This document shows positions 3,301 through 32,457 of a stretch of DNA of 64,000 nt, piece by piece. Location of the stretch: assembly GCF_964188315.1 (NCBI RefSeq), contig NC_135670.1, positions 11,656,001 through 11,720,000 of the forward strand, given 5' to 3'. This stretch comes from Podarcis muralis (Eukaryota). Each line of letters opens with the position of its first letter. Positions within the stretch are counted from its first letter, which is position 1. The notes under the pieces are model-generated. The model was given only the letters and a program-made list of their open reading frames with translations. It was not told the DNA's origin and did not search any database. Position numbers and translations under genes: made by a program.

Positions 3301-3439
3301 TGCTCAGCTTAATGTTGAAGGCGCCCACACGGAGATCCTGAAATATTTCCAGTCCGTCACATCCAATCGGTGGCTGATGGTGAAAATCTTCCTCATCCTT
3401 ATTGTCTTCTTCATCATCTTCGTGGTGTTCCTGGCCTGA
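302..3439 (+). CDS. STX5: Syntaxin-5, last five coding exons (5' part is outside the window)
   Basis: GT-AG exons 302-358, 964-1045, 1181-1281, 2070-2191 and 3280-3439 splice in frame to SKLASMSNDFKSVLEVRTE|NLKQQKTRREQFSRPP...|...VAIDMDSRASQQLQLINEQ|DTYIQSRADTMQNIESTIVELGSIFQQLAHMVKEQEETIQR|IDANVED...NRWLMVKIFLILIVFFIIFVVFLA*. This is the SNARE motif plus C-terminal TM anchor of syntaxin-5. Confidence 0.97.
705..822. repeat. Short palindromic MITE family (CCTCCAGATGTT...ACAACTCCCATCA)
   Basis: Recurrent hairpin elements of about 120 bp, also at about 1620-1750, 8930-9050, 41760-41870, 57420-57540 and 58915-59045. Boundaries are approximate. Confidence 0.65.
2551..2905. mobile_element. Tc1/mariner-type MITE in an STX5 intron
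   Basis: TIRs CAGTGGTACCTCGCAAGAC / GTCTTGCGAGGCACCACTG, flanked by TA. Confidence 0.85.
3001..3176. repeat. Long inverted repeat, probably Penelope-derived, in the last STX5 intron
   Basis: 77-nt arms at 3001-3077 and 3100-3176 are reverse complements with 4 mismatches. The family assignment is from memory. Confidence 0.8.
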
Positions 3440-6583: not shown

Positions 6584-6950
6584 GAGGGAAGCGGGCGGCG
6601 CTGTGGGTTAAACCACAGAGCCTAGGGCTTGCCGAACAGAAGGTCGGCGGTTTGAATCCCCGCGACGGGGTGAGCTCCCGTTGCTCTGTCCCTGCTCCTG
6701 CCAACCTAGCAGTTCAAAAGCACATCAAAGTGCAAGTAGAGAAATAGGTACCGCTCCGGTGGGAAGGTAAACGGCATTTCCGTGCGCTGCTCTGGTTCGC
6801 CAGAAGTGGCTTAGTCATGCTGGCCACATGACCCGGAAGCTGTCTGCAGATAAACGCCGGCTCCCTCGGCCAATAAAGTGAGATGAGCGCCGCAACGCCA
6901 GAGTCGGCCATGACTGGACCTAATGGTCAGGGGTCCCTTTACCTTACCTT
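6584..6950 (+). mobile_element. Sauria SINE
   Basis: GCGGCGCTGTGGGTTAAACC head, (ACCTT)n tail, 13-bp TSD TACCACTGTAATA (6571-83 / 6951-63). Confidence 0.9.
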
Positions 6951-10646: not shown

Positions 10647-13600
10647 ATGGCCGACGGAGGAAAAGGAGGCTACAGCGGTGAGGAGAGGAACCGGGGGTGG
10701 GGGTCAGGCCAGGGGATATTGGGGTGGGTGGGGGGCTTCGCTGGCGTGAGGGGTGGGAACCGGGCCGAAGCCGAGAGGGTACTTTAAAGACACGGGTAGC
10801 CCAACGTGTTGCGCCTCCGGATCCTGTTGGACTCCGGGTCCCATCCGCCCCGGCCCGCGTCGCTAGCGAGGAGCCCGGCAGCGCTCTAGGGCACAGGAGC
10901 CAACTCCTAGGGGCCGAGGTCCCTTCGGCTCCCCCAATGAGATACTTGAAGGGTCCGCCTCCCGCTTCCCCCCTCCCCCGAAGTTGATGGGCAATGTCAT
11001 TCACACGGCGCGTGTGCGCCTCGTGATCGATTGTGTGGGGCACGGCTTACCTGTCCGTCCCCCCCCCTCCCAATATTTTATTCAAGTTGGCACCGCTGCT
11101 CTAGGGATTCAGGAACCTTTTTTTGGGGGTGACTATGTGGGCCACTGGCAGTCCTGTGGAAGGAGGGATGGAAGACCAGGAAGGGTGGGTCGGAGATGGG
11201 GTTTGTGGTCAGTGGGCCGGGATGGGAGGGGGGAGGAGCAGGAGGGTGGGGGCAATTAAGGTAGGGAATGCTCTAGGGCAGAAGGAGAGAGGAGGTGAAT
11301 ATTAGGGGGGGCGAGGGGGATATGGAAGAAGGTGTTATGGGGAACCTTAGGGGGGGGGAGAGGTTCCTTTTTGAAAAAATGCTAATGGAGCTTGAAGGCT
11401 TGAGAGTCAGCTCTTTTTTGTGTCTATAGTATTGTCAATGTGACACACACACACACACACATACATGTATCACTGACAGGGGTAGGAGAACCTGCTTTTG
11501 TACAAAAATGAAGCAGAGTGGCAGGGGCAGCTCCTTGGAGAGGGTTCCTTTCCAGGGATATCTAAGAAGAAGATTTGGATAGAGTTAAAGAGCACAGAGA
11601 GAGGAATCCCACTATTTCAGGTCCTTGGGGGAAGCTGAAGGGAGGCAATGGTGGTGGTGGATAGGGAATGGAGACTTGTTAAGAGGAAGTGAATGGGAAG
11701 GTGTGTCCTAGTTCATGATATTCTCTAGTTGTCTGTGGAGAACTCAGAAGCATGAGGGCACCTTGCTGAATTTTGTAGGGAGCACAGAGTGTAGAAGGCG
11801 GCAATTGATGGCCCAGGGGTAGTCAGTGTGGTGTTCTGCAGACATTGTTGGGAATGCAGCTCCCTTCAGTACCAGTCAGCATGGTCAGTGGTTCAGGGAT
11901 GAGGAGAACTGGAATCCAACAATGTCTGGAAGGTGTTGTGTTGGCTATCCCTGCTCTAGTTTGCTTTTTGAGACTTGCCTGCTGTGATTGTTTCTCTGAA
12001 TACTTTGCTTGACAGCCTTCTGACACTTCAGTTTTTTGTCCTTACATAGAACATGATGACCGTGTGGGTGGAGGTGGTGGCAACAGGGGCTTCCCAGGGA
12101 GGAGGCGAAAAGGTCGAGGCCCCTTCCGAGGAAAGATGTACAGTGAGATGAACCATCACCCGCGGAACTGGAGCAGCGCAGGCCCCAGTCCTCGTAGCCG
12201 ACTTGAAGAGGAGGATGGAGATGTTCTCATGAGTGACCCTCATGATGTGCTGCGATCCCGCTAGTAAGTAAAGTGTTCTCTTGGGTGGACATAAACATAC
12301 TTTAGTTTGTAGGCATGCTGCTGTTGCTCAGCCTCGGTTACCCCATCTGTCAAATGGGAACAGTGACTTATATCAGAAGACTGTAATAAGATAGGCATTA
12401 TGAGTTGTATCAGCTAAGTTCCACTCAGTGTAGGCCCAGTGAAATCAATGGATACTGCTAATTTAAGTCCATTGGTTTCAGTGGGTCTACTCTGAATGGA
12501 ACTTAGTTGGATACAACCCTAAGTGGGGGGGGGGGGGAAGAACCACCTTATGTGCAGAATGACACTTCACCTCCATTTTCCTGTAAGGTCTGAAACACTT
12601 TTGAATCCTGTACTGGTTATATAGTTTTCAGCAAAGAGAATATTCATTCCTTTTTCTTGGGAAGTACACTGGGACAGAAAAGTGTGATTCTCAAAAAGAA
12701 TAATGTTCCCTATTAAGGACACCTTTTTAAAAGTGGTTTGTTTTTTTTTGCTAGTGAACCATTTAAGTGTGTGAATTTCATAAGATCTCCAGTCAAGCCC
12801 ATAGAAAGGTTTTTGTAGAAAGTCTAGGAAAAACAAGGGGACCATTTCTTAGGGCATCACTTGGTTAAAGGCAGGATGTGAATAAGGTCAAGGAGCTGGT
12901 ATTAACGAAGATCAGAATGGTAAAGGCCTGTGACCTGCTCTGTTTTTCATGCTCTAGTTTACAGGCCCTCACACACCCTAGTTAAAAAAAAGCTTAGAAG
13001 GTGGAGCTCTTTGAAGGGATGTGAACCTTTCTTGCCTAACCAGGTACAGGTTCTCTGCTGTGGGGAGGGACTCTGTGCACATTTCCTGCACCTACAAAGA
13101 TGGAAAATGAGGTCATCTGAATCATTCCTCAGCATAGCACTTAACTGGCTGCAACCAGATGAAGAATCTGTGAAGTAAATAATAATAATAATCAGGGAAC
13201 CGATAATTGAATATATTCATCGTTTGTAAAAAGGGCTAGAATCATAAGTTACCTAGTTCATTGAGTAAAGTTAAGGTGCGGGTATAATTACCATTTAAAT
13301 GTCTGATTAGTTCTGTAACATTTTTTTTTGGGGGGGGGGAGCCAAATGCTTTTTATTACTGCTTTGTCCACAGAAACAAACCAGCGAAGTAGAAGAATTT
13401 GAGTGTTTGATCCAGACTTCTTTCTGGGCAAGGTTTCTCATATCTTAATTTGACACTCTGCTACACTCCATACTGAAATCTTGTTTTCTACTCCTCAGCA
13501 CTCCTTACGGTCGTCCAAACAGAGATCGGGAGCGGGGAGGTCTAAGCAATATAAGCCTCACAGTGAGACAGAATCTGAGTACCCTAGAACGGCTTGGCCC

Positions 13601-16600
13601 CAGAAGCAATGCCCCCAAGAAGAGCTGGTTCAAGGTTACAGTAAGTCACATGGAGGAGGGGAGGGTTTTGGAAGCGGAGCTTGAAGGACCCCTGGCTGTT
13701 GTTGGCAGAGGTGCTCTGTTCCTGTAGAGTTGCTGTTTTGACGGACTCTTGCTTATTCAGTTCCTAAGCAATGCTGCGTGTCATTGGCTAAACTGTTTAG
13801 ATTCTAAAGGGGAGGGTGGGGCTGGCAAAATGCCCTCCTAAGCAAAGAAGAACAGGCCAAGCAGGGGACTGAGAAAACAGCAGACCAGAGGCAATGAGGT
13901 CAAGGTAGGAGGTGAGGACTGAATATTGAATGTTCCAGAAGCATGAGGAGAAAGAAAAGGAGAAGTGGGCAGAAAAGAGCTGTAGAGGTGAGGTTAGCTC
14001 TCATGCACACTTTGATCTGAAACAATCAGTCCAATCTTTGTGTCAATTCATTGTTAATTGTTTAACAGAGCAGCTGGTTTACCTGAATAATTTCCAGACT
14101 TGAGTGTGCTGAAAACACAAGGAGCTACCGCTTTTTGAGTTAGGCATGAGAACATTATGTTATGCAGGCTAGAAAGGGAGCTTCCCAGTTTCAGTTCTGC
14201 TGGTAATCTGCAGGTCAGTCCTTCCCCACATGGTAACTTTGCAGTCCCATGTGGTTTGGGAGGGGAAATAGCTAAACCTCACAGGACTGGAGTTGAGAGA
14301 ATGCTGCCTTCTTTTATAACAGAAACAAGCAGCACTATGGTTTGACTTTGACAACCAAGCCTCTTAACACTGTGCATTTGGGGGTGGAGATTAAATGCAT
14401 TTATTACTCCATTTATTACTTTCTTGCCTTTATGCATATAACACCCAAGAAAGCTAACAGTGGGCTGTATCAAATGTTATTCCTGCTCAGAGTAGACACA
14501 TTGAAATGAACCAACATGACTAACTTAGGCCCATTCATTTCAGTAGGGTACAATAAATAGAACTTCAGTAGATTCCACCCAGTAATAATACTACAATAAC
14601 ACATTTTAAAACCAATAAGTAAATAGAGCAGATGAAACCTATCAAAGATACAAATTGAGGCCACAGACATAATAAGACTAGTCATGATTTTTTTAAAAAA
14701 AGAAAAGTCAGCTAGACGGGCCAAAAGGATAATTACATAAAAAAGATTGTGTGACTGTGAAATGACATTAGAGAAGGCCCTTAGGTCATGTCCTCGCATG
14801 TATGCCCAAACTGCAAACCCAAGTCTTCAGAAGAAGTGCAATTCCATCCAAGACAGCATGAATCCCCATTCCCTGATTTTAAACGAACCAAGTTCTTCAC
14901 CAGCATCCAGGCCATTAGCAACACTGCACACTGATTCTGAACTTGAACAGGTTTTGGGGGGATTTAGATGGAAATGAGAGAGTTAGTCTCATCAGCATGT
15001 TCATAGAATCATAGAGTTACAAGGGACCCCAAGGGTCATCTAGTCCAGCCCCCTGCAATGCAGGAATCTCAGCTAAAACATCCATGACAGATAGCCATCC
15101 AACCTCTGCTTAAAAACCTCCATGGAAGGAGGTGTTGGTGGCACAGAACCTCCAAACTGCAGAATACCTCCCCCAGTGGTTCCATGTAGATGTTTAATAG
15201 CATGGGAAATGAGATCGAACCCCAAGAGATGCAATTGACCATCAACAAGGGCATCAGACAGGATTCACATGGCACCATTTTTTGAAACTGTTGCCCTAAG
15301 AAGGACTAGAGCCACCACAAACTTGTGTCTCCCAAGTCCCATCACACCCAGATTGTTCAGGAGGTTGATGCCACTGTAAGCTGCAGAGAGGCTCAGGAGA
15401 ACAAACCAGGAGGGGTGAGCTCCCTCTTTTTGCCCAGAGACGTTTCCCAAGAATTGAAAGTTGGAAACTGGCCAGAAATTATCCAGTATGTGGGGGGTTA
15501 AGGAGGAGCCCCGCCTTTAAATATCTTGGCACTACCCTCTGTGCTTGGTGGAACAGCACTATCTTGTGACAAGGCATTTGCATCTCCTCACTGGCAGGTT
15601 TTATGAGCCAGGAGGAGCAGGGATTGAGCAGTCAGGTCTCACTTCTCCAACAGTCCACGTCCTTGAGTTGCACATATTGAAATGTATCCAGAGACTGTTT
15701 GTACTCACGGGTTTTGCCCTTGTGTACAGTTGATGCTAAATATAGCTATACCTAAGCTTAATGGGATTGGGAACTTCAGTGAAAGTCATCAACCATTGGA
15801 TCTAGACATCTTTTCAAATCTTTTCCTGAGCTGATTCTCCAGCTGCAGGCTTTTACATCTGATTTATTTCTCCCAACATGCCCAGTCTAGCCATTCAGTG
15901 TATATGCCTGGGTCAGCTGGTTTTGCTAGAGAGCCGATTTGAGGAGGTGTCAGAGGGTGATAGGCCAGAGCTAGGAATGGAGGAGAAATTTGTGCAGTCT
16001 GCATTTTAAAGCGAACATACCTCATTTGCTGATCCCAGACTTAGCTGTCAATAAGATGATGTATTTCTCCAAATTTTGCTCCACAGTTTTGGTTCAAACA
16101 TGTGAATCTTTTTGTGGGGGATTATGCATACAAAATTCATTTTTGTTAAGCAGGAAAAAGCATTGAAAGTAATAAACAGATATATTTTAGGGGAAGAATG
16201 TACACACTTTATACATAATCTACATATAACTTTTTGCGTTACCTTTATCCACACAAAAAAGTCAGGCATATGACTGACATGGAAACAGACGCAGAATGGA
16301 AATAGGCTGATTTGTGCATCTCTAGCCAAAGCCCTTCAGTCATCCACAATGGACTTCCAGTTCCATAGCATTTGCACTTTCCTAAACTGGAACTCAAAAT
16401 CTTGCTGCTCCCATTTCACCTATGCCTAGAAGCATCTCCCTTTGTTCTCTTTCCAGCTGAATTGTAGCATTTTTAATCCCATAGTTTACAAAATGCATGC
16501 CTCCTAGGTTTCACATTTCCAGATTAGCCAAAAGCTTTTCTTTCTTCCCCACTGATGCAGTGAAAAATGTCCCCAACCTACCAATTGGCAAATGGACTTG

Positions 16601-19600
16601 AGAGCTGGATATTATTACCACATCAAAGCTTTGGTATGGTTCTGCTTCTTGCCTTGATTGGCTTTTTTGCTTTTCTCCCCCTCAGATTCCCTATGGAAGG
16701 AAATATGAAAAGGCCTGGCTGATTAATGCCATTCAGAATTTGTGCAGCGTTCCCTTCACTCCTGTGGAGGTAAGAGAGGCATACACATGTTCCCTGGGCA
16801 AGAATTTTCCTTTCTGTTTTACAGAATTGGCAGTCTTGTGATTCCCAAATGGTGTGCTGCAATAGGAGCTGGGGTATTCCTTGAAACCGCCATGTCGGAT
16901 GCATCCAGCACCCATTGTCATTTGGATCAGGAGGCTGTATGTGGCATTGATTTGATCTTGCCCCCACCCCAGTTAGTAAATTGCCAATGGTATTCTGATA
17001 TAAGTTGCACCAGCAATACTCAGATTATAAGGTGCTGGGCAGGGGCTGCGTTTCCTTGGGTGTACCCAGTATTGATTCTACTCAGAAAAATTAGCTACTG
17101 TTTTTTAGAAATGCCAAGCAAGAATGTTTGGTTAGAACTGGGGAAAAGAGGAGTCAAGGAATGGAGCTTGTGTGAAGTTCCTCAACTTTCTCCCACAATT
17201 CAAGCTCTATACACTAGCATCCCATGCTGCAGCTGACGGGTACAGGGGAATCCCTGAGTCACCACCATTGCTTAGAATACCCAGTTGCTTCTATAGGCCT
17301 TAACCACCTGAGCAGGATGCCAGGAGGCATTAATTGTACTTCTCTGCATTTGAAGGGAGAGGTACTTCTCTCTTTCCCCCCCTCAGAACCAATCAATAAA
17401 ATGTTAGTCATTTTTGAGCATCTGAGTGAATTGTGCCTTCAATTTTAATCTAGGAAAAAACTTACTGTGTCCTAGATAATTCAGCAGTTTTGGAAATGCT
17501 GGTGCTAGTGAAATAAAAATATCATGAAGGAATGCGGAGACTAGGGGTGGCATGAGGCTGGCATTAGCAGAACGTGTTGGTGATGGGGAAGCTTAAAAGC
17601 TCCAAGCCCTGCACCTTCTGGTCACTCAAAGCTGTGCCCAGAGGCATTACAAGGCACCTTCCATGTTGTATAGTCTTTATTAATTATGAAGATCAGCTCC
17701 TTTTTTCTAATTAAAGAAGAATGAGCTCTGTCTCACACCAAGACCTTTCCCCCTCTTGCCGCAGCTACACTATGCCAATAATCGGGTAGTGTTCTATGTG
17801 GAAGATGCCTCTGCAGCCAACGCCCTCAAACAGGTGTCTCGAAAGATTGTTGCCCCAGATGGCTACAAGGTTGGTTTGTTCTTCCTCTGTGGGCCTGGGG
17901 CTAGTGGGGGGGGGGGATACATGAGGTTGGAGGGCGATTAGCTATGTCCAGACTAGTGAGGTTGCTTGGTCAGTTATAGCTCTGACCTGCCTCATGTGAT
18001 CGTCCTTTGCTGACACAGCTTAGATTCAAGCAGTGCTTGCAAAGGAAGAAAGGAAAGAATCAGGAGTCCACTCTTAATTATTTCCTTTGAAGTTGTGAGG
18101 TCAGGTAACTGAGAGATGGTCAACCTCGCCCATCGGCCAGAGTGGATCAAGGGGGAGTGGGGGAGCTTAGGATCCAGCCCACCTGCAAGATCTTGTTCCC
18201 CAGTCCTCTCTACATACATTAAGTAGCCTGGGCAGGGATTAACCTGCACCCATCCAATCTCTCAACTGGCATTTCTTTCAGGTTGTGATACTTTTAAACC
18301 CATGCAGTCCACCAACATCTGTCCAGCGTGAATTGAAACCAGAGGAGATTGAGCAGCTGAAGGTGAGTGGAATGTGCCAGAACTTTAGTACTATTTTCTT
18401 GCCTTCCACTTGCCAGTCTGCCCTGCATTCCCACAGGTGGTTTGTGTCTGGTGTTTTTCTCTTTGGGAACCTGACAATGATCCTTGATTTTAAACTGTCT
18501 CAAGAGGTTAGCGAGTTGGAATGGGAGATGCCATCTGTCTTTAGTGGGAAAACAAGTCCCTGTTCAGGTTGTGATTGTACAATCTCTTCCTAACCTTGGT
18601 TTGGTTTTTTTCTTTTGCTTGGGGTACTGAGAGTCTCTTCTTCCCCTCAAGCAGGCAGGAATAAGCCTGTCTGAGTCCTTATCTATCTAATGGAAATTTT
18701 CTCTCTCCTTCCAGCTTTGCATGAGTAAAAGATACGATGGTTCCCAGCAGGCCTTGGATCTAAAGAACCTTCACACAGATCCAGGTAGGTCACCGTACCC
18801 ACCTTTTCACTGTTGGGACTGCTGTTCTTCTACACACCTAGAACTCTGGTTCCAGCTTCAGGGGCAGAGGTGGGTTTCTGTTGCAGATTCCAGCTGGCAG
18901 TGAAGTGAGATTCATTCTACTTTTTAACTCCCCAGATCTGGTAGCCCAGAACATTGACATGGTGTTGAGTCGCCGAAGCTGCATGCTAGCTGTGCTGCGG
19001 ATCATCCAGGAGAACATTCCTGAGGTCATCCATTTCTCTCTCCCTTTCCCTCTCTTCAACCCAGCCTTTTTCTTGCCTTGGTGCCCTCGGGGATTGGTGA
19101 TTTCTCTGAAATTTCATGCTGAAAAGATTTCAGCTTGCCCTCAAATGAATATGGACCCTTGTAAGTAAGTGGTCCATAATTACAAACCATACACGAAACA
19201 TCATAGAAGGGGTGGCAATATTGGATTTGCGTTTTTTGTTTATTTGTTCTTGTATTTATCGTGTATTTTGTATCTTATCTTCTATTTTTATGTTGTGAAC
19301 TGTCCTGATCTACAGATGGAGGGCGGTATACGAATGTAAATAAAGAAATAAATCTTACTGTACTTTAATTTATTTTTTAATGAGGTTTTTTTTTAAAATA
19401 CAAAAACTGCCTTGAGGTCACTTGGTGGCAAAAAGCACATCTCTCACTCACACCTCACAAATCCCACCCCCATCTGTCCTTGCAGCTCCTTTCTCTGAAC
19501 TTGAGTGACAACAAGCTCTATCGGCTGGATGATATGGCTGAGCTGCCCCAGAAGGCTCCCAACCTGAAGATCCTCAATTTGTCTTCTAACCAGGTAGGGC

Positions 19601-22600
19601 TGGATGCTCACTAGCTCAGCCTGAATCTTCCATTGGGTAAAATCCTCACTCTCTTCACTATGCTCTCTTTCTTTCCCTCCTGGCTCCCTTCAGTTGAAGA
19701 CAGACCGTGACTTGGACAGGTTAAAAGACTTGAAGCTTGAGGAACTATGGCTGGATGGCAACCTGTTGTGTGATAGCTTCCGCGACCAGTCTACCTACAT
19801 CAGGTGAGCAGTAGCCCTGGAGCTGCCTAAGATGTCCTGGAAGGGCGCACCTCCACCTACCCAGAGGGCATTCAGGGCATGATTAAGATGTTTCTTGCCA
19901 AAAGGCGTATTTTGCCCTCCTAGGGGTGCCAGCTTGGTTATTTTGACCCCAGAGCACCATCTGCCTCGGCTGCAGCCAAATCTCTGAAGACGCTGCATCC
20001 CATTCCTGGATCCTGAGTTGTGATTCTTGTGATAATGGTTTTATTTCAGCCAGATTGGAGCACTGCCCAGCCCCGTCTCCTCCCCCACCCCATATTGATA
20101 TTACTACATTTATTAGCTGAAATTTGCTTTTGTGGATGATCTGCCATATCGCACCTCCCAGCCACCCCAGCCTTGCTTCTCTTCCTTGTGAAATCTTCCT
20201 TTCCCCCTCCCCCGCTTTTCTGTCTGCCTTCCACTCTCCGCTCTGCACACGCCACTTGCTTTTCTCTGCCCCCGGGGGCTCTAGGACCTCAGGATGCGCA
20301 GCCTTTTCCATCCTCTCAAGTTCCCCATGTGCACTGCCACCCTCCTTTGAGCCTGCCATGCTGAGCCACCTTGTTCGTGGCCTTGCCTGCTTCTATATTT
20401 ATATATTGTGGCTCCCCAATGCTGTACCTGGAAGTACCATATTGCACAGAGGCACGTGGAAGTCTTTCTTTTGGAGAATTGAAGCTAAGCTGCTAAATCC
20501 TGGGGTGCCCCTGGTGCGTTTGGCTCTCACAGATGGCTGGTTAGCCAGTGACGGGTAAGATTCCTTGCGGAAGGAACAACCTAAGACAGGCACAGCCGCA
20601 CGGTGGCCAAACGGAGCCCTTCCGCCCGCCTCCGGGGAAGTTGGCAAACACAAGGCACCAGAACCCTCCTTCACAGGCTTGTCGTCGGCAAGTAGCTTTT
20701 GGACAGCCTCTGCGCCATTTCTAATGGGGAGACTTTTGCTTCTTGATGATCTGGGAGTGACGATGGTGCTGACTCTGGATGGAGCAGCAGCAGCAGACTG
20801 AAGTGACAAGCTTCTTGCAAGGAAAACTCTTTCTCCCCCAGTTGTGCACTTGGAAGTCCTGTTTGTGTGGCCAAGGCATCTGTATCTCTGCAGGGTTGGG
20901 GCGTCCAGAAGGGGCAGTGTGGAGGATGGATGAGGCTGTGCATCAGTAGGGAGGAGTTTCCAGGCCTTTTTTTCTTTGTTTCCATCACTCTGGCGTCCCT
21001 CTGCTTCTCCCTCCCCCACCCGCATCTTCCATGGTCATTAATTAGATTTGGGCCTTGATGCAGGAACTCTCCCAAAGCTGTTTTAAGTTGGGTGCCAGGA
21101 AGTTGGCTCAGGCATCTCCATGACCAGTGGGAATTCTTGTCCATTTCCCTACTTCCCCTTCCCTGCCCCTGCCCTCTGGCCTCAGTGGAGCGCTCCTCCT
21201 ATAAATTGGGCCATGTGGGTGAGTACACACTCAGGTAAGTGCAGAGGGAGACTTTGAGTAGCATGGCTTTGGAGACTTCTGCCTCTCGCACCCGTGTGCA
21301 TGTGTAAAACTACCACGGGAAGAGTACCAGAGCATTTTACTTTAAAGGCTGTGTTCTGCTACCTACTAATTTTTTGAAGTTGGCTAACTGTCACTCACCC
21401 TTGTATGGTATCAAGTGACAGAACCATAATAGTGAAATTGATCAACTTTTCCCTTAAATTGTCTGACAATATTAAAGGAAAGCTGACTCAGCATTTTCTC
21501 CTAGGTGAGATTTGAGTCAGATTTTAATACGCAGGGTGGGAAATGTCAAATATAATCAGATGTCTCTTTAAACTGGATTGCAGTAGTTCTCTAATCCAGC
21601 ATAAGCAGTACGATCCTTTTAACCCCATTCGTGTTGCTTCTTCTGTGGCTAACGGAAGATGCAGAGCCTAATACGGTTCCACGTGCAGCTTTAGCAACCC
21701 GTCCCTGATTTTGTACACGTTCTACCTTTGTTTAAAATGCTTGTACGTGTAAATTTCTTAGGCTTCCCAAGAAACATACAGTTTGAGAGCCTTGGGCGGT
21801 GGGCTTTCGTTAAAAGATTCTGGTAATGCCGCCATTTTGTGGTGTTTCTCCACGCTCCTAAGAAGGCCCAGATGCGTGGAATGAAACTTGTGGGACATGT
21901 CTCCTAAGTTCTTCCAGTTGGGGAGCTGGTTGTTGCTCTGTAATTCAGAATCCAGGAAGTGAGGTGTGGTGAGGTGAGGGTTCTGAATCACCAGTGGGCA
22001 GCCTATATAATTCGGTGGGCATCTGTTTGGCCCAGGATAACAAATTGATAACACCTCCACCTCCTGACAGCAGTTGAGGCAACTTCTTTTTGCAAGACTT
22101 CCCACCTTGGTTTTAAAGGATGCTTTAGAGAATGATGGCCAGTGGCCAGGGTGGGTAGAGGCCACAACAGGATGTAGTTCAGGTAGCACTGGCTGTAGTA
22201 GGAAGATGGTGGTAGCAGAAGGTGGGGACCACCCAGGTAGGCCACGGGTGGGGGGAGGGCAGTGCTCTTGGGGCACAAAGCTCTTTCATTCACTCCTTTT
22301 CCCCTTTCTGACAGCGCCATCCGCGAACGGTTTCCAAAGCTGCTGAGGCTGGTGAGTGAATTGTTCAAATTCCAGGTGGATTCTGAACCAGCTTTTGTAT
22401 CTGACAGTACTGTTGCCTTACCCTTCTGCCTCTCCCATCACAGGACGGCCATGAACTCCCCCCTCCGATCGCTTTTGATCTTGAAGCACCTACCACGCTT
22501 CCCCCTACTAAGGTACAGAAATGCTCGGAAGGGGCAGGGGAGGGGGCCTGTGTTGCTGTTGCCCTGAGAAAGCTGGCGCCTTTCGAGCCCTTGCTTCAGT

Positions 22601-24650
22601 CCCATTGCTTGGTGTGGCCTGTGGCATAGGATGCCTTAGGGCTGGTGCTAAGAGGGTACTTGGCAGGGTTTTTTTGGTGTTTGGGAGGAATGGAGGGGAA
22701 CAGATTAACATCCGGCTTCTCTCTTTGACTCTCCTCACTCAGGGCAGCTATTTTTGCTCTGAAGACTTAAAAGTGTTGATCCTGCGATTTCTGCAACAGT
22801 AAGTAGACCTGCAAGGTCTTGTACGTTAAAGAAAAGCAGAGCCCCTGCCAACAAGTTTATAACCTGGGGGATTTGGCACACACAAAAAGGGGAGCTAGAG
22901 GGTAAAGATCTTCAGTTTTAAGTTGGTTCCTGGGAAGAGGGTAGTGGTAATGATGCTGGCTGGCATTTGAAAACCAGGGTTTGAAATTTCATTCCAGTGT
23001 TTAAAACTTGGCTAGCAAAAAGGATCGTTGACTACTGTAATTGAAAGAAGCAAAAGGCTTTATTGAGGCACAGTACCCAATACAATAGGGACGCGAGTGG
23101 CGCTATGGTCTAAACCACTGAGCCTAGAGCTTGCCGATCAGAAGGTCAGCAGTTCGAATCCCCGCGACAGGGCGAGCTCCCATTGCTCAGTTCCAGCTCC
23201 TGCCGACCTAGCAGTTCAAAAGAACGTCAAAGTGCAAGTAGATAAATAGGTACCGCTCTGGCGGGAAGGTAAACGCCGTTTCCGTGCACTGCTCTGGTTT
23301 TGCCAGAAACGGCTTAGTCATGCTGGCCACATGACCCGGAAAAACTCTGCGGACAAACGTCAGCTCCCTCGGCCAGTAAAGCGAGATGAGCGCCGCAACC
23401 CCAGAGTCACTCGCGACTGGACTTAAGTGTCAGGGGTCCTTTACCTTTACCCAGTACAATGGAAATAACATAATAGAAATAATAAAGCGGCTACAGCCTC
23501 CCTTCCATTCTGGCTGTTTCTTTAGCAATGTTTGTATTCTCCCACAGATATTACACTGTCTATGATTCTGGGGACCGGCAAGGGTTATTGGACGCCTACC
23601 ACGATGGAGCCTGCTGCTCCCTGAGCATCCCCTTCTCACTACACAACCATTCCAGGTAAGTTTACGCTTCTGACATTTGTTCCCTTGCCAACGGGAGAGG
23701 ACTGCACTTTGCCCTGCTACACTGTGCTTTGGTTTTGGTGTGACATGGTGTGAGACAGGCTGTGTGCACCCTGTCTAAAGTTTCTGTGCCAAGATGTGGG
23801 GCATTTTGCAACCTATACTAAGCAAACAAGAGTTGCTTGTATTAGTCACAAGGAGATTCAAAGAGCTGTGTGTGGATCTTGCACATGCCTCCCATTCAAG
23901 TATTTCACGCTTTGCAAGCATGAAATCTTTTTGTAAGATGCCATACATTTGGTTGCATTGTGTTGATTGGCAAGAAGATTTGGTGATAAATAAATCTAAC
24001 TAGACTGTTCAGAGGACAGCTTACTTTTTTCAAAATCCTCCTACCAAGAGAGAGACTAGGTTGAAAGTACATGGAGCTGCTTGCTTTACTTTGGAGCCAG
24101 CTGGGGATTTAACCCTTGGCACGCTGCCTCCAAACCCAACATTTTGCCCACTGCAGCCAAGTATACACCTCCTGCTATGTAAAGAAAGACCTGGGGAAAC
24201 GGGTAGGCATTTATGTTCCTGTTTTGTCTGCAGGAGCACTCTGGCTGAATACTTCAAGAACAGCAGGAATGTGAAGAAGCTTAAGGATCCCAGTAAGTAA
24301 TGACCAGTGGCGGGGGTGGGGTGGGTGTACAAGGCTACAGACTCTTTTATGGACAGTGTGTAATCAAAAGTGTTTCATGGGAGATGGGCCCTGCACAGTG
24401 ATTCTGCTGCGGAGGTTGGGACCCCAGTGCACAAAAGAGGGGAGCTGAATGGTGAAAGGATTTGGGACAACGCTCAAATCCACACTGAAGCCCTTCATTC
24501 GTAGCAGTCCAGTTGTGGAAGAGGATAACAGAAAAGCCCCTGATTAAAGTGAATAAACTGTATTGTTGGCTATTTTGGAACAAGAGCAGTGGTTTTTTTT
24601 TATTTTTTAGGGTTGGGGCAGATGCTCCTACATTAGTGGATTGTCCCCCA

Positions 24651-24692
<42 letters not shown>

Positions 24693-27600
24693 ATCTGCTG
24701 CTGGTTTCTCCACTTTGGGTTTACTTCAGTGAAGGTAGTAATTGACCTTCCCTCTGCTCTCTCTGCCCCCAGCCATGCGCTTCAGGCTCCTCAAGCACAC
24801 AAAGCTAAACGTCGTGGCCTTCCTTAGCGAGCTCCCGAAGACTCAGCATGACATCAACTCCTTTATTGTGGACGTCTGTGCCCAAACGGTGAGTCAGGGG
24901 AGAAGGAACTGGCCAAGCACTTACCGCCTTTCAAGGAGTAGGTGAGGTCAGTGGGCAGGCAACAAGAAAGATGAGGAATGGGTTGTTGGTTGGGCGGAGA
25001 TTTGACTTGCCCCTGGTAACCAGTGGGAGCTGAGAAAAATTGCTACCTCTATGCAGAAAGTCAAAATATGTGTTGTTCAGCTGGAAATCTTGGAATCTGG
25101 AACAAAGTATGATTACATCCCCTCCCCATAAATACATACCCCCCCCCCATTGCTGCTCACTTTTCGATAAAGGCAATTTACTTCCAGGAAAACCATCCAT
25201 AGATCTCTTTTTATGCTGCTACTGTTTCAGTCCTTTTAGCTTGTTTTCAGTTGGCATGATTATAATTGTTTCTATTGCTGTGTATTTATCTTGTAAGCGG
25301 CTGTGAGTATTTCATTACAGAAAGGCGGGGTATACATCTTGATGTTAAACGATGTATATAACATCTGTGTAGGTTGCTGCCACAATCTCTTTGGCCTTGA
25401 GACCCTTCTTTTCTCATTGCAGAACACGCTGCTGTCTTTCACCGTCAATGGGGTCTTCAAGGAAGGTGAGTGTGCTGTTAAAAGCCTGCTTTGTGACACA
25501 TCCTGAACAGTGGGAAAGCCAGAAGACTTGCAGCACCCAGTGCCCCTTCTTGAAAACTCTAACCTGCGCTTTCTTTCTAAATTCTACAGTGGATGGCAAG
25601 TGTCGCGACTCGGTGCGCGCCTTCACCCGTGTGTTCATCGTTGTGCCTGCTGGCAATAATGGGTAAGGGTTATGAGCTTCAGGGCATTGACAAATCCAGG
25701 GATTGCAAGACAGGTGTGTCTCTGAAAGGGGCAGGTATTGGGAGGATGTTGAAATATTTATAGGGGGATGAGAGACAGAGCCTTAGCAGTCATGTCTGTC
25801 AGGAGCTGGGAACGCCAAAGGTTTTTAAAAATAGCCCATGTGCTGGAGGCATTGGGGGATTGGACAGCTAATAGAGGAGCATAATTTCTAGGGGACAGCC
25901 TGGCGCTGGTTGGGGAAGGGCCCTAGCTCAGTGCTAAAGCATCTGCTTTGCATGCAGAAGGTCCTAGACTTAGTCCCAGTATCTCCAGGTAGGGCTGGGA
26001 AAAACTCTCACCTGAAACCCTGGAGAGCTGCTGTCAGTGCAGTAAAGCAAGTCAGTGCAGGCAATACTGAGCTAGACCCAACAGTCTGACTTGGTGTGAG
26101 GCAGCTTCCTGTGTCACAATTCTTGCAAAAGATGTGGGGCTAGCATTGATTTTGGCATTTTCAGAAAGCATGTTAATGTTTAGAAGCAGGGGGATGACAG
26201 ATTAGTCATGCCTTACTTAACAGTTACAGTGTTCCAAAATATATATTCTCAGTAAATTTTAAAGTGGTTCCTTGCAGCACAGTTTTAAAAGCCAGGCCAT
26301 CAAGACAGGTTGATTGCCACTTGTCGAATCTAGCGACAATTCCTTTTTGCTGTAGTTGACTTTCCACAAGAACAGTGGGAGCATGGTTCAAAGAAAACAT
26401 CATGCTGGTGTGTCCCATTTTTTTCTCTGACTTCAGGACCCATTTTACTGAACATTGGCTAGATGCACTTCTAATATTTGCCACACTTTTTACTACTGTT
26501 AGAATATGGTGACCTTCTCTCCTTGGTGAAGGCAGAAGCAAGTATAGTGTCTAGCTGTTGCTCCTTTATTTATGGGAGCATCCTGCAGTGCTTGGCAAGA
26601 GATGCAAGCAAGCAAGCAAGCAAGCTGTAGGAGGTTCTGTTGTATGCATTAGCAGATCCTAACCTCTGCTTGCCGTCAGAGGGGTGGCCAGGAATAGTCA
26701 GGTCTCAGACTGAAAGGGTAGAAGGTGAAAGCATTCTGGCTACTCTACCCTCAATATTTCCTCCTTATGTTGGGTGTAGACTTGCAGCCCCTCCATTAAC
26801 CACTCCTGGCTCTTTTCCCCTCCTCTGCAGGCTGTGCATTGTGAATGATCAGCTATTCATTCGTAAGGCCACCAACAAGGAAATCCGCAAAGCTTTCGTC
26901 ATGCCAGCGCCCACGCCCTCCTCCAGCCCGGTACCCACGCTCACGGCAGAGCAGCAGGAAATGCTGCAGAATTTCTCACTGCAGTCGGGCATGAATCTTG
27001 AGTGGTCTCAGAAGTGAGTCTGGAGTTGCTGGGGGCTGGCAGTTGGGAAAAAGGAGTGGGAGATGGTCTTGAGATCAGGGTGGGGGGCAGGGAGGAAAAA
27101 TGAGATTAGGTTAGGCTGCTGCCTCATTGCTTTATCATCTCCCCCTACCCTTGCCCAGGTGCCTCTTGGACAATGATTGGAACTACGCTCATGCAGCCCA
27201 GGTTTTTACCCAGCTCAAGGTGAGTGCCCTAGTGCCTTTCTAGAGTGAGACCACCAGAACCTGCTGCCAGGCTTAAGAACTGGAGACAGAAAGTGATGGC
27301 TGGGATGGATTTGCACTGCACTGCAGTTCTGTTACAGGGGAGAAGCCTGGGTGGCTTTTCCTTCATTCTCAGGGTCTGATGTGCCGTATTTGAGGGTCAT
27401 GTTTTCCCCCAGAGGAAGTTTGCAAGGAAAGCCATCCCCTATGTAATATGCCTTGATGTGTGTATTCAGAGTTATTTGAAGCGAGAGAATCCAGAAACCA
27501 TTGCTGTTGGTTTCTGCTCTTTTGCTTTTCACCCATAGTGCAGTAATGAGAAGCTGATATGTAGCAGACTTTGCCTTTGGACGGGTGACTGTCCTCAGAA

Positions 27601-27844
27601 TATTTTGTCCCCTTACTGGCCTCTTAACTGACCTTTGGAAGAGGAGTCAAGTCCGGATTTGGGAAAACTTTTTTATCACAACCCTGTGAGCCTGGGGAAA
27701 ACCCCTGGGTTCTGTTGACAGCTTCGTGTTTGTCTCAGTCTCCTTGTTAGAACCAGACATGGAGGAGAGGTGGTTGCTGTTAACTTCTTACTCTTCCTTT
27801 TCTAGGCTGAGGGGAAGATCCCAGAAGTGGCGTTCATCAACTGA
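10647..27844 (+). CDS. NXF1: Nuclear RNA export factor 1 (TAP), complete, about 625 aa
   Basis: Exons 10647-10677, 12050-12263, 13499-13640, 16686-16769, 17765-17869, 18282-18362, 18715-18784, 18936-19024, 19486-19593, 19694-19803, 22315-22351, 22444-22512, 22743-22798, 23548-23655, 24234-24292, 24773-24888, 25423-25465, 25590-25662, 26831-27013, 27159-27219, 27806-27844. All are GT-AG, sum to 1878 nt and stay open. They encode RRM ([12 protein letters not shown]), LRR ([11 protein letters not shown]), NTF2-like ([28 protein letters not shown]) and UBA ([13 protein letters not shown]...IPEVAFIN*) domains. AATAAA at 27914-27919. Confidence 0.98.
20517..20613 (+). promoter_or_regulatory. Constitutive transport element (CTE) RNA hairpin in NXF1 intron 10
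   Basis: AGCCAGTGACGGGTAAGA (20543-20560) and AACCTAAGACAGGCACAGCC (20578-20597) match the two strands of the type-D retrovirus CTE internal loop as recalled. Stems: TTCCTT/AAGGAA (20561-20576), GGCTG/CAGCC (20535-39/20593-97) and CGTTTGGC/GCCAAACG (20517-24/20606-13). Confidence 0.92.
21186..21234 (+). other. Candidate decoy/poison exon in NXF1 intron 10
   Basis: Long polypyrimidine tract then CAG acceptor (21183-21185). Two donors: GG|GTGAGT (21219) and CAG|GTAAGT (21235). In-frame TAA at 21202-21204. Confidence 0.6.
23087..23447 (+). mobile_element. Sauria SINE in NXF1 intron 13
   Basis: Same family as 6584-6950. TSD TACCCARTACAAT at 23074-86 / 23448-60. Confidence 0.9.
25912..26115 (+). 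mobile_element. tRNA-Ala-like squamate SINE
   Basis: TAGCTCAGTG...TTTGCATGCAGAAGGTCC head and CCTGGAGAGCTGCTG...GAGGCAGCTTCCT body. Related copies at about 45660-45800, 54085-54215, 56010-56180 (-), 61400-61540 (-) and 62205-62365. Confidence 0.7.
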
Positions 27845-30076: not shown

Positions 30077-32457
30077 ATGTTGCACTGCACATGGCGAGCT
30101 GGGCTGCGGATCGGGGGGCTGGCAGGTGGGGGAGCTGGAAGCTGCGGGGTTTGGAGGCTCTGGGGCCTCACGGGTCCTGTGCGCTTTTGGAGCTGGGGCG
30201 CGCAAAGGGCTCCCGGCGCGGAGCTGCCTCGGCGATGGGGCGCCCGGGGCGTGCAGACCGCCTTCCCGTTGGATACTAATGTGCCCCGGGATGTCTTGCT
30301 TTTCCAGCACGATCGAGGCCGTTTTTTCCGTATTCTCGGGCTGTTCTGCGCCGGCCAGTTCGTGTTCTGGGCGTATCTGGCACACTTCGCTTTCCACGGC
30401 TTGCGGGATGTTAGGGCGAGCCGGCCAGAGCCGGATCCCCAGCATGGGGAGCGCCCTCTGCCAACTCTACCGGGAGGAGCCACGATACAGTTGAGCTCCA
30501 ACAAGTGGCGCTTCGGTTTCACTGCGTCTTGCCTGACCGTGGGTAAGGAAGGGCTGGATTGCGCTGCCCGCTCCTCCTCCGGGGTTACTTATTAGCATTG
30601 GTTGCTCTTCGTTCTTATAGAATTGTGGAATTGGAAAGGACCACGAGGGTCATCTATTCCAACCCCCTGCAATGCAGGAATCGTTTTGGCCAGCATGGGG
30701 CTTGAACTCATAACCTCGAGAAGTTTACAATATAAATTGCAATCTTACTTTCATGAAATTGTAGGTTTGCTTCTTGTTGGTGGCAGATAGTATGTGGGGC
30801 ACAGCAGGAAAATGTATCCAAACGTAATATTGTGGGTTGCAGATCCATGGGTTGTAGCCAACCAAGTTCTACCCCCAAATAGATCCATCGAAATTAATTT
30901 ATCTAAGTAAGGCCCCTATCTAGGGACGCGGGTGGCGCTGTGGGTAAAACCTCAGTGCCTAGGACTTGCTGATCGCATGGTCGGCGGTTCGAATCCCCGC
31001 GGCGGGGTGCGCTCCCGTCGTTCAGTCCCAGCGCCTGCCAACCTAGCAGTTCGAAAGCACCTTCGGGTGCAAGTAGATAAATAGGGACCGCTTTCTAGTG
31101 GGAAGGTAAACGGCGTTTCCGTGTGCGGCTCTGGCTCGCCAGAGCAGCGATGTCATGCTGGCCACGTGACCCGGAAGTGTCTGCGGACAGCGCTGGCTCC
31201 CGGCCTATAGAGTGAGATGAGCGCACAACCCTAGAGTCTGGCAAGACTGGCCCGTACGGGCAGGGGTACCTTTACCTTTACCTTTTTAAGGCCCCTATCT
31301 GCACTATACATTTAGAGCAGTATCATTACCACTTTAAACAGGAACTGTAGTTGTTAACAGTACTGAGAGTTGTTAGGAAACCTCCCCTGTCATTTCCCCC
31401 ACAGAACTACGATTCCCAGAGTTTCCTGGAAAGAAGGATTGATTGTTAAGCCACTCTGGAAAGTGTAACTCTGTGGTGGGGAATAGGGGTCTCCTAACAA
31501 CTGTCAGCACCACTAACAAATGGCAGGCCCTGGAATTCTTTGGAGGAAGCCATGACTGTTAAGGTGGCATAATATTGCTTTAAATATAAGGTGCAGATGA
31601 GGCCTCAGCCATGCTCCTTTGTTTCATGGGGTCTACTCTGAGTAGAATTAACACGGATACAACCCAATAAAAATAAGGCACTCCCTGCCCAACTCAGGCT
31701 TATAACCAGGACCAAGGATCAGATCCAACATCCATGACTGGGGCAGGCGTAGTCTGAAACATCCATTAAGGCACCAGGTTGACACAGGCACCCAAATGTA
31801 TCAAAGCAGGCGCAAGTCCAGTTTCTGTGGGAAATTGCACAGGGTGGCTGCTACCACAAAACAGGCCTTTCCTTGACATAGGTCTGTCACAGCTCAGCTG
31901 GCAGAAGCACCTGGGCCATGAAGGTCTTTGAAGGTCACAATCTCTTTGAATCGGGTCCAAAACCAGAGTAGGAGCATGTGCATTGGCGAAGCGCTAGTAC
32001 ATGATGATTAAATTTCCTAGTCAGAAACCCAGCAACTGAATTCTGAACCACCTGCCATTTCTGAACCATCTCCCAAGGCAGCCTTAGGATTTATCAGGCA
32101 TTGCAGTAGCCTGACCACTTGGTTATCTCAGCTCGACTTGACATCCTGCTCTGTTCCTTTGCAGGTTCTCTGATCTTGGCGGCAGGTTTTGTCTTTTCCC
32201 GACGCTCTGTGAGCCGGATCTTGCTGCACCGAGGTGGGCAGGAGGTGACCTTTACCACCTATTACCCCTTGGGCTGGACCTCGTCCTTCACGGTCCCTCT
32301 TCGCCATGTTTCCTGCATGTCCCATCGTACGGAGGTGCCGGCGATGATGCCACTCAAGGTTAAGGGGAGAGCCTTCTATTTCCTGTTGGACAAACAGGGA
32401 CGGATCACCAACACAAAGCTTTTTGACATCACTGTTGGCGCCTATCGCAAGCTGTGA
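30077..32457 (+). CDS. TMEM223: Transmembrane protein 223 (mitochondrial inner membrane), about 252 aa; start codon uncertain
   Basis: Exon 30077-30542 (...RDVLLFQHDRGRFFRILGLFCAGQFVFWA...CLTV G|gtaag) joins in phase 1 to exon 32165-32457 (GSLILAAGFVFSRRSV...VPLRHVSCMSHRTEVPAMMPLKVKGRAFYFLLDKQG...LFDITVGAYRKL*). It lies directly downstream of NXF1, as in mammals. Confidence 0.93.
30922..31286 (+). mobile_element. Sauria SINE (second subfamily) in the TMEM223 intron
   Basis: GGGACGCGGGTGGCGCTGTGGG head, (ACCTTT)n tail, 14-bp TSD TAAGGCCCCTATCT (30908-21 / 31287-300). Confidence 0.9.

What the first reader, a model, noticed from the sequence alone, without database searches (positions are those of the whole stretch)
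20517..20613. Retrovirus-like CTE inside the reptile NXF1 intron 10: the exporter carries its own binding element
Seen: both strands of the CTE internal loop (GCCAGTGACGGGTAAGA and CAACCTAAGACAGGCACAGCC), a 6-bp apical stem (TTCCTT-GCGG-AAGGAA) and two closing stems (5 bp and 8 bp), about 710-810 nt into a 2511-nt intron (19804-22314). Established: NXF1 binds the MPMV/SRV CTE, and mammalian NXF1 exports its own intron-10-retained mRNA through a similar element. From memory, each strand differs from the viral CTE at about one position. Inference: this autoregulatory export loop is intact in squamates, and the extra outer stem may be a conserved extension.
Basis: partly seen in the sequence, partly recalled or inferred. 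Interest (0 to 1): 0.75.

Follow-up and report, generated by a model that had tools for sequence, protein, structure and literature searches.

The report
Lizard NXF1 intron export hairpin
A lizard's main mRNA-export gene carries, inside an intron that about half of its transcripts keep, the same small RNA hairpin that mammals, fish and monkey retroviruses use to export unspliced RNA, so this self-export device likely works in reptiles too, where an earlier survey had missed it.

Summary
Observation confirmed to the base. The gene is lacertid NXF1 (21 exons, 625 aa; exon 2 is 99% identical to Zootoca NXF1). Intron 10 is 19804-22314, and the element at 20517-20613 is the cellular constitutive transport element (CTE). 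Each loop strand differs at one base from a type-D retrovirus record. The apical stem pairs 6 of 6 here and in two distant-animal copies despite different letters. New evidence: in three bulk RNA-seq samples (one study), intron 10 is read end to end on the sense strand at about half exon depth, while neighbouring introns are almost empty. Wang 2015 reported no CTE in birds or reptiles, so this fills a stated gap. Export, NXF1 binding and feedback are inferred, not shown. Differences from mammals: one loop base (G20548) is predicted to close part of the loop; the retained form stops at once (345 aa, no 18-residue tail). The outer stem is probably not a new extension. Reptile NXF1 keeps Arg249, whereas 18 of 18 covering bird rows have Gln. 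The scan had already noted this element in sea urchin and octopus DNA. New member of a known kind; interest 0.4.

The parts
10647..27844 (+). NXF1 gene, ATG to stop: 21 exons, 625 aa, all introns GT-AG
   Evidence: Gene model; joints of introns 5-12 seen in reads; Pfam Tap-RNA_bind, LRR_NXF1-5, NXF_NTF2, TAP_C; 607/625 identical to the Zootoca NXF1 record
19694..19803 (+). Exon 10 (110 nt), end of the LRR domain
   Evidence: the same 110 nt in distant-animal locus L020
19804..22314 (+). Intron 10 (2511 nt), retained in roughly half of transcripts
   Evidence: 13 of 13 wholly intronic bins covered on the sense strand in each of 3 bulk runs; ratio to exon depth 0.51-0.53
19805..19807 (+). In-frame TGA that ends the retained form at 345 aa (last residue Arg, from the junction codon)
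20517..20613 (+). CTE hairpin with its lower stems (97 nt)
20544..20591 (+). CTE core (48 nt): 3-bp closing stem, internal loop, 4-bp stem, apical stem
   Evidence: Pair probabilities 0.93-0.99 in 5 of 6 contexts; closing stem 0.53 in one 531-nt context; 34 of 48 positions invariant with L020 and L012
20547..20552 (+). 5' strand of the internal loop (AGUGAC); G20548 stands where L003, L004, L012 and L020 have A
   Evidence: viral record L002 has the same G
20583..20588 (+). 3' strand of the internal loop (AAGACA), the motif reported to bind NXF1
   Evidence: present in every distinct core; part of it was fixed by the search pattern; PMC4330393 and PMC4174252 passages
20552..20561 (+). 5' splice-site-like sequence beside the loop; no read joint uses it
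   Evidence: table 5; the same conserved unused site is described in PMC4338338
20561..20576 (+). Apical stem-loop, 6 bp
   Evidence: 18 of 18 cells paired in lizard, L020 and L012; 5 of 6 positions show a change on both sides
20534..20598 (+). Middle stem (20534-20539 with 20593-20598), partly shared with the viral lower stem
   Evidence: Pair probability 0.50-0.94; 22/26 identity of 20535-20560 to each of 3 viral records
22315..22351 (+). Exon 11 (37 nt)

Best explanation
The stretch is the lizard copy of the NXF1 intron-10 constitutive transport element, sitting in an intron that about half of the transcripts keep, and it likely binds NXF1 directly so that the intron-keeping mRNA would be exported. 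Steps: (1) intron 10 is spliced poorly while its neighbours are removed (shown); (2) the RNA folds into a stem with a two-strand internal loop (predicted, backed by compensatory changes in the apical stem); (3) the RRM-LRR of NXF1 with NXT binds the loop (inferred from the human, zebrafish and viral work, and from conserved contact residues); (4) the mRNA leaves the nucleus and is either translated into a 345-aa NXF1 without the NTF2-like and UBA domains or removed by nonsense-mediated decay (inferred); (5) NXF1 level thereby sets the share of its own transcripts that give full-length protein (inferred, untested).
For: Orthologous gene and intron. The spacing of the two loop strands (36 nt) equals the published mammalian spacing, nt 32-37 and 68-73. 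Strands 16/17 and 20/21 identical to viral record L003, which contains the SRV-1 CTE primer sequence printed in PMC4330393. Apical stem 18 of 18 cells paired across three animal copies; shuffle null 0.001-0.005 each. Against the L020 intron, the two best 20-nt matches of the whole lizard intron (18/20 each) are the two core strands, next best 16/20; against L012 the best (18/20) is the 3' strand. Selective retention: intron-10 mean depth 5.9, 11.2, 10.1 against exon depth 11.5, 21.0, 19.2; 14 of 15 cells zero in wholly intronic bins of introns 4, 5, 8 and 13. Spliced reads: 15 for intron 10 against 27 for intron 11, which shares the 37-nt exon. Of 18 published CTE-contact positions visible in my alignments to the human chain, 13 are identical; Arg249 is also kept. 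The zebrafish element and proteins work in human cells.
Against: No binding, export or protein data for the lizard. Reads are from unfractionated RNA, 3 samples of one study, about 12% of each run, low depth; the single-cell run (38 reads) is inconclusive. G20548 is predicted to pair with C20587 and close part of the loop (p about 0.96; the open loop costs 2.3 kcal/mol), whereas mammals show no change in the loop. Five contact positions differ from human (I190L, R233H, N248S, R276K, S305T). Folding z-score with flanks is ordinary. The stop at 19805 with downstream junctions makes the RNA a decay target, and single cellular CTEs are weak in reporters without added NXF1/NXT.
Confidence: 0.75

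Rival explanations
1. The element binds NXF1 but acts mainly inside the nucleus: the intron is detained, the hairpin and its embedded splice-site-like sequence slow splicing or hold the RNA, and whatever is exported is decayed, so no short protein matters.
For: High steady-state retention despite an immediate premature stop. The lizard and L020 retained forms have no intron-coded tail at all, so the mammalian 18-residue tail is not shared. A conserved unused 5' splice-site-like sequence overlaps the element.
Against: In mammals the retained mRNA is exported, on polysomes and translated (PMC5170612 passages); the zebrafish element promotes export 7.5-fold in a reporter.
Confidence: 0.15
2. The lizard element is a weakened or decaying copy: the loop change closes the binding site, and the intron is retained for other reasons such as a weak donor.
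For: Predicted two extra pairs inside the loop, absent from all A-bearing copies; five contact changes in the protein; another NXF-family gene was reported by the scan to keep the intron with a decayed element (e1-7855955, untested).
Against: One base differs in the 17-nt 5' strand and none in the 15 nt 20577-20591 from the distant-animal copy L020; the same G stands in simian retrovirus record L002; no difference in the 48-nt core in a related species or other individuals as far as listed; the apical stem stays fully paired.
Confidence: 0.08
3. The match is a fragment of an inserted retrovirus or a chance look-alike.
For: Near identity to type-D viral strands; a reversed control pattern also matched once in the genome; proviral-type tandem copies exist in other animals.
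Against: Single copy in the genome, single loop, same intron as in mammals, fish and L020, which is 30-49% identical in protein; spacing equal to the mammalian element.
Confidence: 0.02

Closest known systems
Cellular CTE in intron 10 of NXF1 (human, mouse, 36 mammals, zebrafish, coelacanth; Wang, Rekosh, Hammarskjold 2015, PMC4338338, parts 1-5 of 7 read, figures not seen; Li et al. 2006 not read)
   Same: Same gene, same intron of a 21-exon gene, nearer the 5' end, one loop, same 36-nt strand spacing, embedded unused 5' splice-site-like sequence, intron retained in RNA.
   Different: Host group that the paper's BLAST searches reported as lacking it; one loop base differs from the viral and distant-animal form; the retained frame stops at once (345 aa) instead of adding a tail. 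The human letters could not be compared: they are in figures that are not held.
CTE of type-D simian retroviruses (MPMV, SRV; records L002-L004; PMC4330390 abstract and passages, PMC4330393 passages)
   Same: Loop strands 16-17/17 and up to 20/21 identical; 22/26 over the longer 5' arm; AAGACA motif; middle stem partly shared.
   Different: The viral element has two loops in two-fold symmetry; the lizard has one. Apical stem and outer stem are unrelated in sequence.
Short NXF1 (sNxf1, 356 aa) of mammals (PMC5170612, passages)
   Same: Truncation at intron 10 keeps RRM and LRR and drops the NTF2-like and UBA domains.
   Different: The mammalian form has 18 intron-coded residues; the lizard form would have one junction residue. 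No protein evidence here.

Membership tests
NXF1 intron-10 CTE | Lies in intron 10 of an NXF1 orthologue | tested here: met
   one NXF exon-10 match in the genome; flanked by a SNARE gene and a TMEM223-family gene (human gene order recalled)
NXF1 intron-10 CTE | AAGACA loop strand facing a second 6-nt strand, 36 nt apart | tested here: met
   20547-20552 and 20583-20588 against nt 32-37 and 68-73
NXF1 intron-10 CTE | Loop sequence unchanged | tested here: inconclusive
   G20548 differs from L003, L004, L012, L020 but equals L002; human letters not available as text
NXF1 intron-10 CTE | Stem-loop-stem core fold | tested here: met
   Predicted, with two extra pairs inside the loop; compensatory apical stem; not probed experimentally
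NXF1 intron-10 CTE | Intron retained in otherwise spliced RNA | tested here: met
   full-length sense coverage, neighbouring introns near zero; short reads, 3 samples of one study
NXF1 intron-10 CTE | Premature stop giving a short RRM-LRR product | tested here: met
   TGA 19805-19807, 345 aa on paper; protein not observed
NXF1 intron-10 CTE | Direct NXF1-NXT binding | not testable with these tools
   Only contact-residue conservation was examined
NXF1 intron-10 CTE | Promotes export of intron-containing RNA | not testable with these tools
   No fractionated RNA or reporter data
Type-D retroviral CTE | Two loops in two-fold symmetry | tested here: not met
   One pattern match in the genome and one 5' strand in the window at up to 3 mismatches; L002 and L003 have two
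Rfam RNA family | Match to a curated model | tested here: not met
   No match over the element at E up to 5 in 15000-27000

The most novel reading that the evidence does not exclude
The NXF1-CTE circuit is an ancient animal device that reptiles kept and birds alone dismantled: bird NXF1 swapped Arg249 for Gln and lost the element, while lizards keep both, with a tail-less short product that is the ancestral form and a loop base that tunes binding. That would make reptiles against birds a natural knockout for what the circuit is for.
Probability: 0.35. Interest if true: 0.6.

Novelty: new member of a known kind. Interest (0 to 1): 0.4.

Why it matters
It corrects a stated negative (no CTE in birds or reptiles, PMC4338338) and adds RNA evidence that the intron is kept in a reptile. 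The lizard and a distant animal both stop at the first intron codon, so the mammalian 18-residue tail is unlikely to be the conserved point of the device; the RNA element and the truncation are. The Arg/Gln split at 249 between reptiles and birds gives a direct test of co-loss of an RNA element and its binding residue. The mechanism itself is known, so the surprise for a specialist is modest.

Tried and rejected
Folding energy as evidence: rejected; z is -0.25 with flanks and +1.15 at 231 nt, and in a scan of 101 windows of 97 nt along the intron none of the ten best lay on the element. Rfam: nothing on the element. Conservation from close relatives: a contig of a related species has 10 substitutions and 4 indels in 641 nt, one of them in the 97-nt element (20602, unpaired), about 2 expected; not significant. 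Two of the four runs laid nothing, and hid 33 of 73 difference rows. The run search listed no holder on record as RNA; only the added raw-read runs were used for expression. The dip in depth near the element was not interpreted, since human-like reads are dropped. The pair-count tool was not usable on alignment A1, whose gaps misregister the apical stem, so pairs were counted by script. 'mid' pair values used wrong coordinates and were redone. Literature: ten searches found no report of a reptile NXF1 CTE; the single 'lizard' hit was an author's name. Not held: Teplova 2011, Ernst 1997, Zolotukhin 2001, Pasquinelli 1997, Coburn 2001, so the effect of the loop base and of Gln249 could not be read. 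Comparative nxf1-intron papers by Mamon and Golubkova are recalled, were not found and may already list reptiles. The supplements of PMC4338338 were listed, not read. Scan look-ups by sequence, by relatives and by reptile words were blank.

Full report
Gene and organism. Exons picked by splice signals give a 21-exon, 625-aa open frame with GT-AG introns throughout. Single exons match human NXF1 chains in the PDB and the four NXF Pfam domains. Exon 2 is 99% identical to the Zootoca vivipara NXF1 record, and the next hits are other squamates; the whole protein is 607/625 identical to it. The animal is thus a lacertid lizard. Exon 10 has one match in the genome. A SNARE gene lies upstream and a TMEM223-family gene downstream, as I recall for human NXF1. 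Intron 10 is 19804-22314, between exons of 110 and 37 nt.

The element. The two-motif pattern matches once in 1.52 Gb, here; its reversed control also matched once, so position and longer identity carry the argument. The same pattern found 3 viral records and 17 metagenome stretches. L003 contains the SRV-1 CTE primer sequence printed in PMC4330393, which ties it to the type-D CTE. Against L003 the lizard strands are 16/17 and 20/21 identical, and 20535-20560 is 22/26 identical to each of the three viral records. PMC4338338 places the mammalian loop at nt 32-37 and 68-73 of a 94-nt block; the lizard loop strands have the same 36-nt spacing, which maps the block to 20516-20609 if there are no indels.

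Structure. The predicted fold is stable to context: core pairs have probability 0.93-0.99 in five of six contexts, and the lower stems fall to about 0.5 in one. Energy alone is no evidence (z -0.25 with flanks). Covariation is better. L020 is an NXF1 gene of an unidentified distant animal: exons of 105, 78, 70, 89, 108, 110 nt against 105, 81, 70, 89, 108, 110 here, protein pieces 30-49% identical, and the core 908 nt into the orthologous intron. L012 has the same core on a contig without exons, so its gene is unknown. In all three the apical 6 bp pair (18 of 18 cells), five positions with changes on both sides; shuffling the insert gives 0.001-0.005 each. L020 and L012 also fold long lower stems of unrelated sequence. 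The other 15 metagenome stretches look like proviral repeats and were not used for this count.

One real difference. G20548 replaces the A of L003, L004, L012 and L020 and is predicted to pair with C20587, leaving a 3x3 loop; opening it costs 2.3 kcal/mol. Mammals show no loop changes. Viral record L002 has the same G, so it occurs in a natural viral element. The mutational papers were not held, so its effect is open.

Expression. In three stranded bulk RNA-seq runs of the same species label (one study, about 12% of each run read; 188, 342 and 318 reads laid), all 13 wholly intronic bins of intron 10 are covered on the sense strand, mean depth 5.9, 11.2 and 10.1, against 11.5, 21.0 and 19.2 at eight exonic sites. 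Five wholly intronic bins of introns 4, 5, 8 and 13 give zero in 14 of 15 cells and 0.4 in one. Coverage runs to the 3' splice site, which argues against intronic polyadenylation. Spliced reads number 8, 3, 4 for intron 10 and 10, 7, 10 for intron 11. Both measures point to roughly 45-50% retention. No joint uses the splice-site-like sequence in the element. A single-cell run had 38 reads and is inconclusive. Whether the retained RNA is nuclear or cytoplasmic cannot be told.

Product and protein side. The retained frame reads one junction codon and stops at 19805-19807 (345 aa); L020 does the same; mammals add 18 residues. PMC4330390 lists 20 CTE-contact residues; 18 were visible in alignments to the human chain, 13 identical and 5 changed (I190L, R233H, N248S, R276K, S305T); several of these positions also vary among other vertebrates. 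At position 249, 25 of 26 non-avian reptile rows have Arg (1 gap), while 18 of 21 named bird rows have Gln and the other 3 are fragments that do not properly cover it. I recall that quail NXF1 fails to support the viral CTE because of this Gln (Coburn 2001); the paper was not held. Rows are related, so this is one event, not many.

Prior knowledge. PMC4338338 (parts 1-5 of 7 read; figures not held; supplements listed only) reports the element in 36 mammals, zebrafish and coelacanth, shows function for zebrafish, and states that BLAST found none in birds or reptiles. Passages only were read of PMC5170612, PMC4330390, PMC4330393, PMC7551171, PMC4174252, PMC3621094, PMC8758631, PMC9143442, PMC8151460, PMC4488659 and bioRxiv 2020.02.10.941435; none showed a reptile CTE. 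Ten searches found no such report, but the library lacks most subscription papers, and recalled comparative work by Mamon and Golubkova may cover it. The scan's own notes record the element in sea urchin and octopus (unchecked, consistent with L020).

Verdict. A real, orthologous NXF1 intron-10 CTE with shown intron retention and inferred export. New member of a known kind; interest 0.4.

Noticed in passing
L020:1-3974 (metagenome contig): NXF1 gene of an unidentified distant animal, probably not a vertebrate (30-49% protein identity), with the CTE core in the orthologous intron, a long lower stem and an immediate stop in the retained frame.
   Followed up: partly
L012:568-618 (minus strand): A clean single CTE core in an AT-rich contig with no NXF1 exon on it; host and gene unknown.
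   Followed up: partly
L005-L011, L013-L019, L021: Three families of repeated, provirus-like stretches with tandem CTE-like halves; described only.
   Followed up: no
Protein P0029: An unnamed 349-aa bird-like NXF1 (Gln249) that runs from the start through exon 10 and then ends in eight unrelated residues, as a spliced transcript keeping intron 10 would; suggests birds may still retain the intron.
   Followed up: no
Proteins P0016, P0019 (turtles), snakes: Turtles have Lys128 and Gln279, and snakes have His or Tyr at 307, at listed CTE-contact positions; their introns were not available.
   Followed up: no
window 21604-21724 and 22204-22300: 97-nt windows in intron 10 that fold better than shuffles (z -3.3 and -2.7, best of 101 windows, 30 shuffles each); may be chance.
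   Followed up: no
window 17764 (loose ends, run X23): Four reads join exon 5 to sequence that is not exon 4; possibly an alternative upstream exon.
   Followed up: no
window 6585-6945, 23086-23455, 30921-31282, 39699-40050, 47675-47762: Five copies of a 370-nt repeat, 74-86% alike; resembles the Sauria SINE as recalled.
   Followed up: partly
window 3233-3439 and about 30230-32457: Last exon of a SNARE gene (STX5-like) upstream and a two-exon TMEM223-family gene downstream of NXF1.
   Followed up: partly
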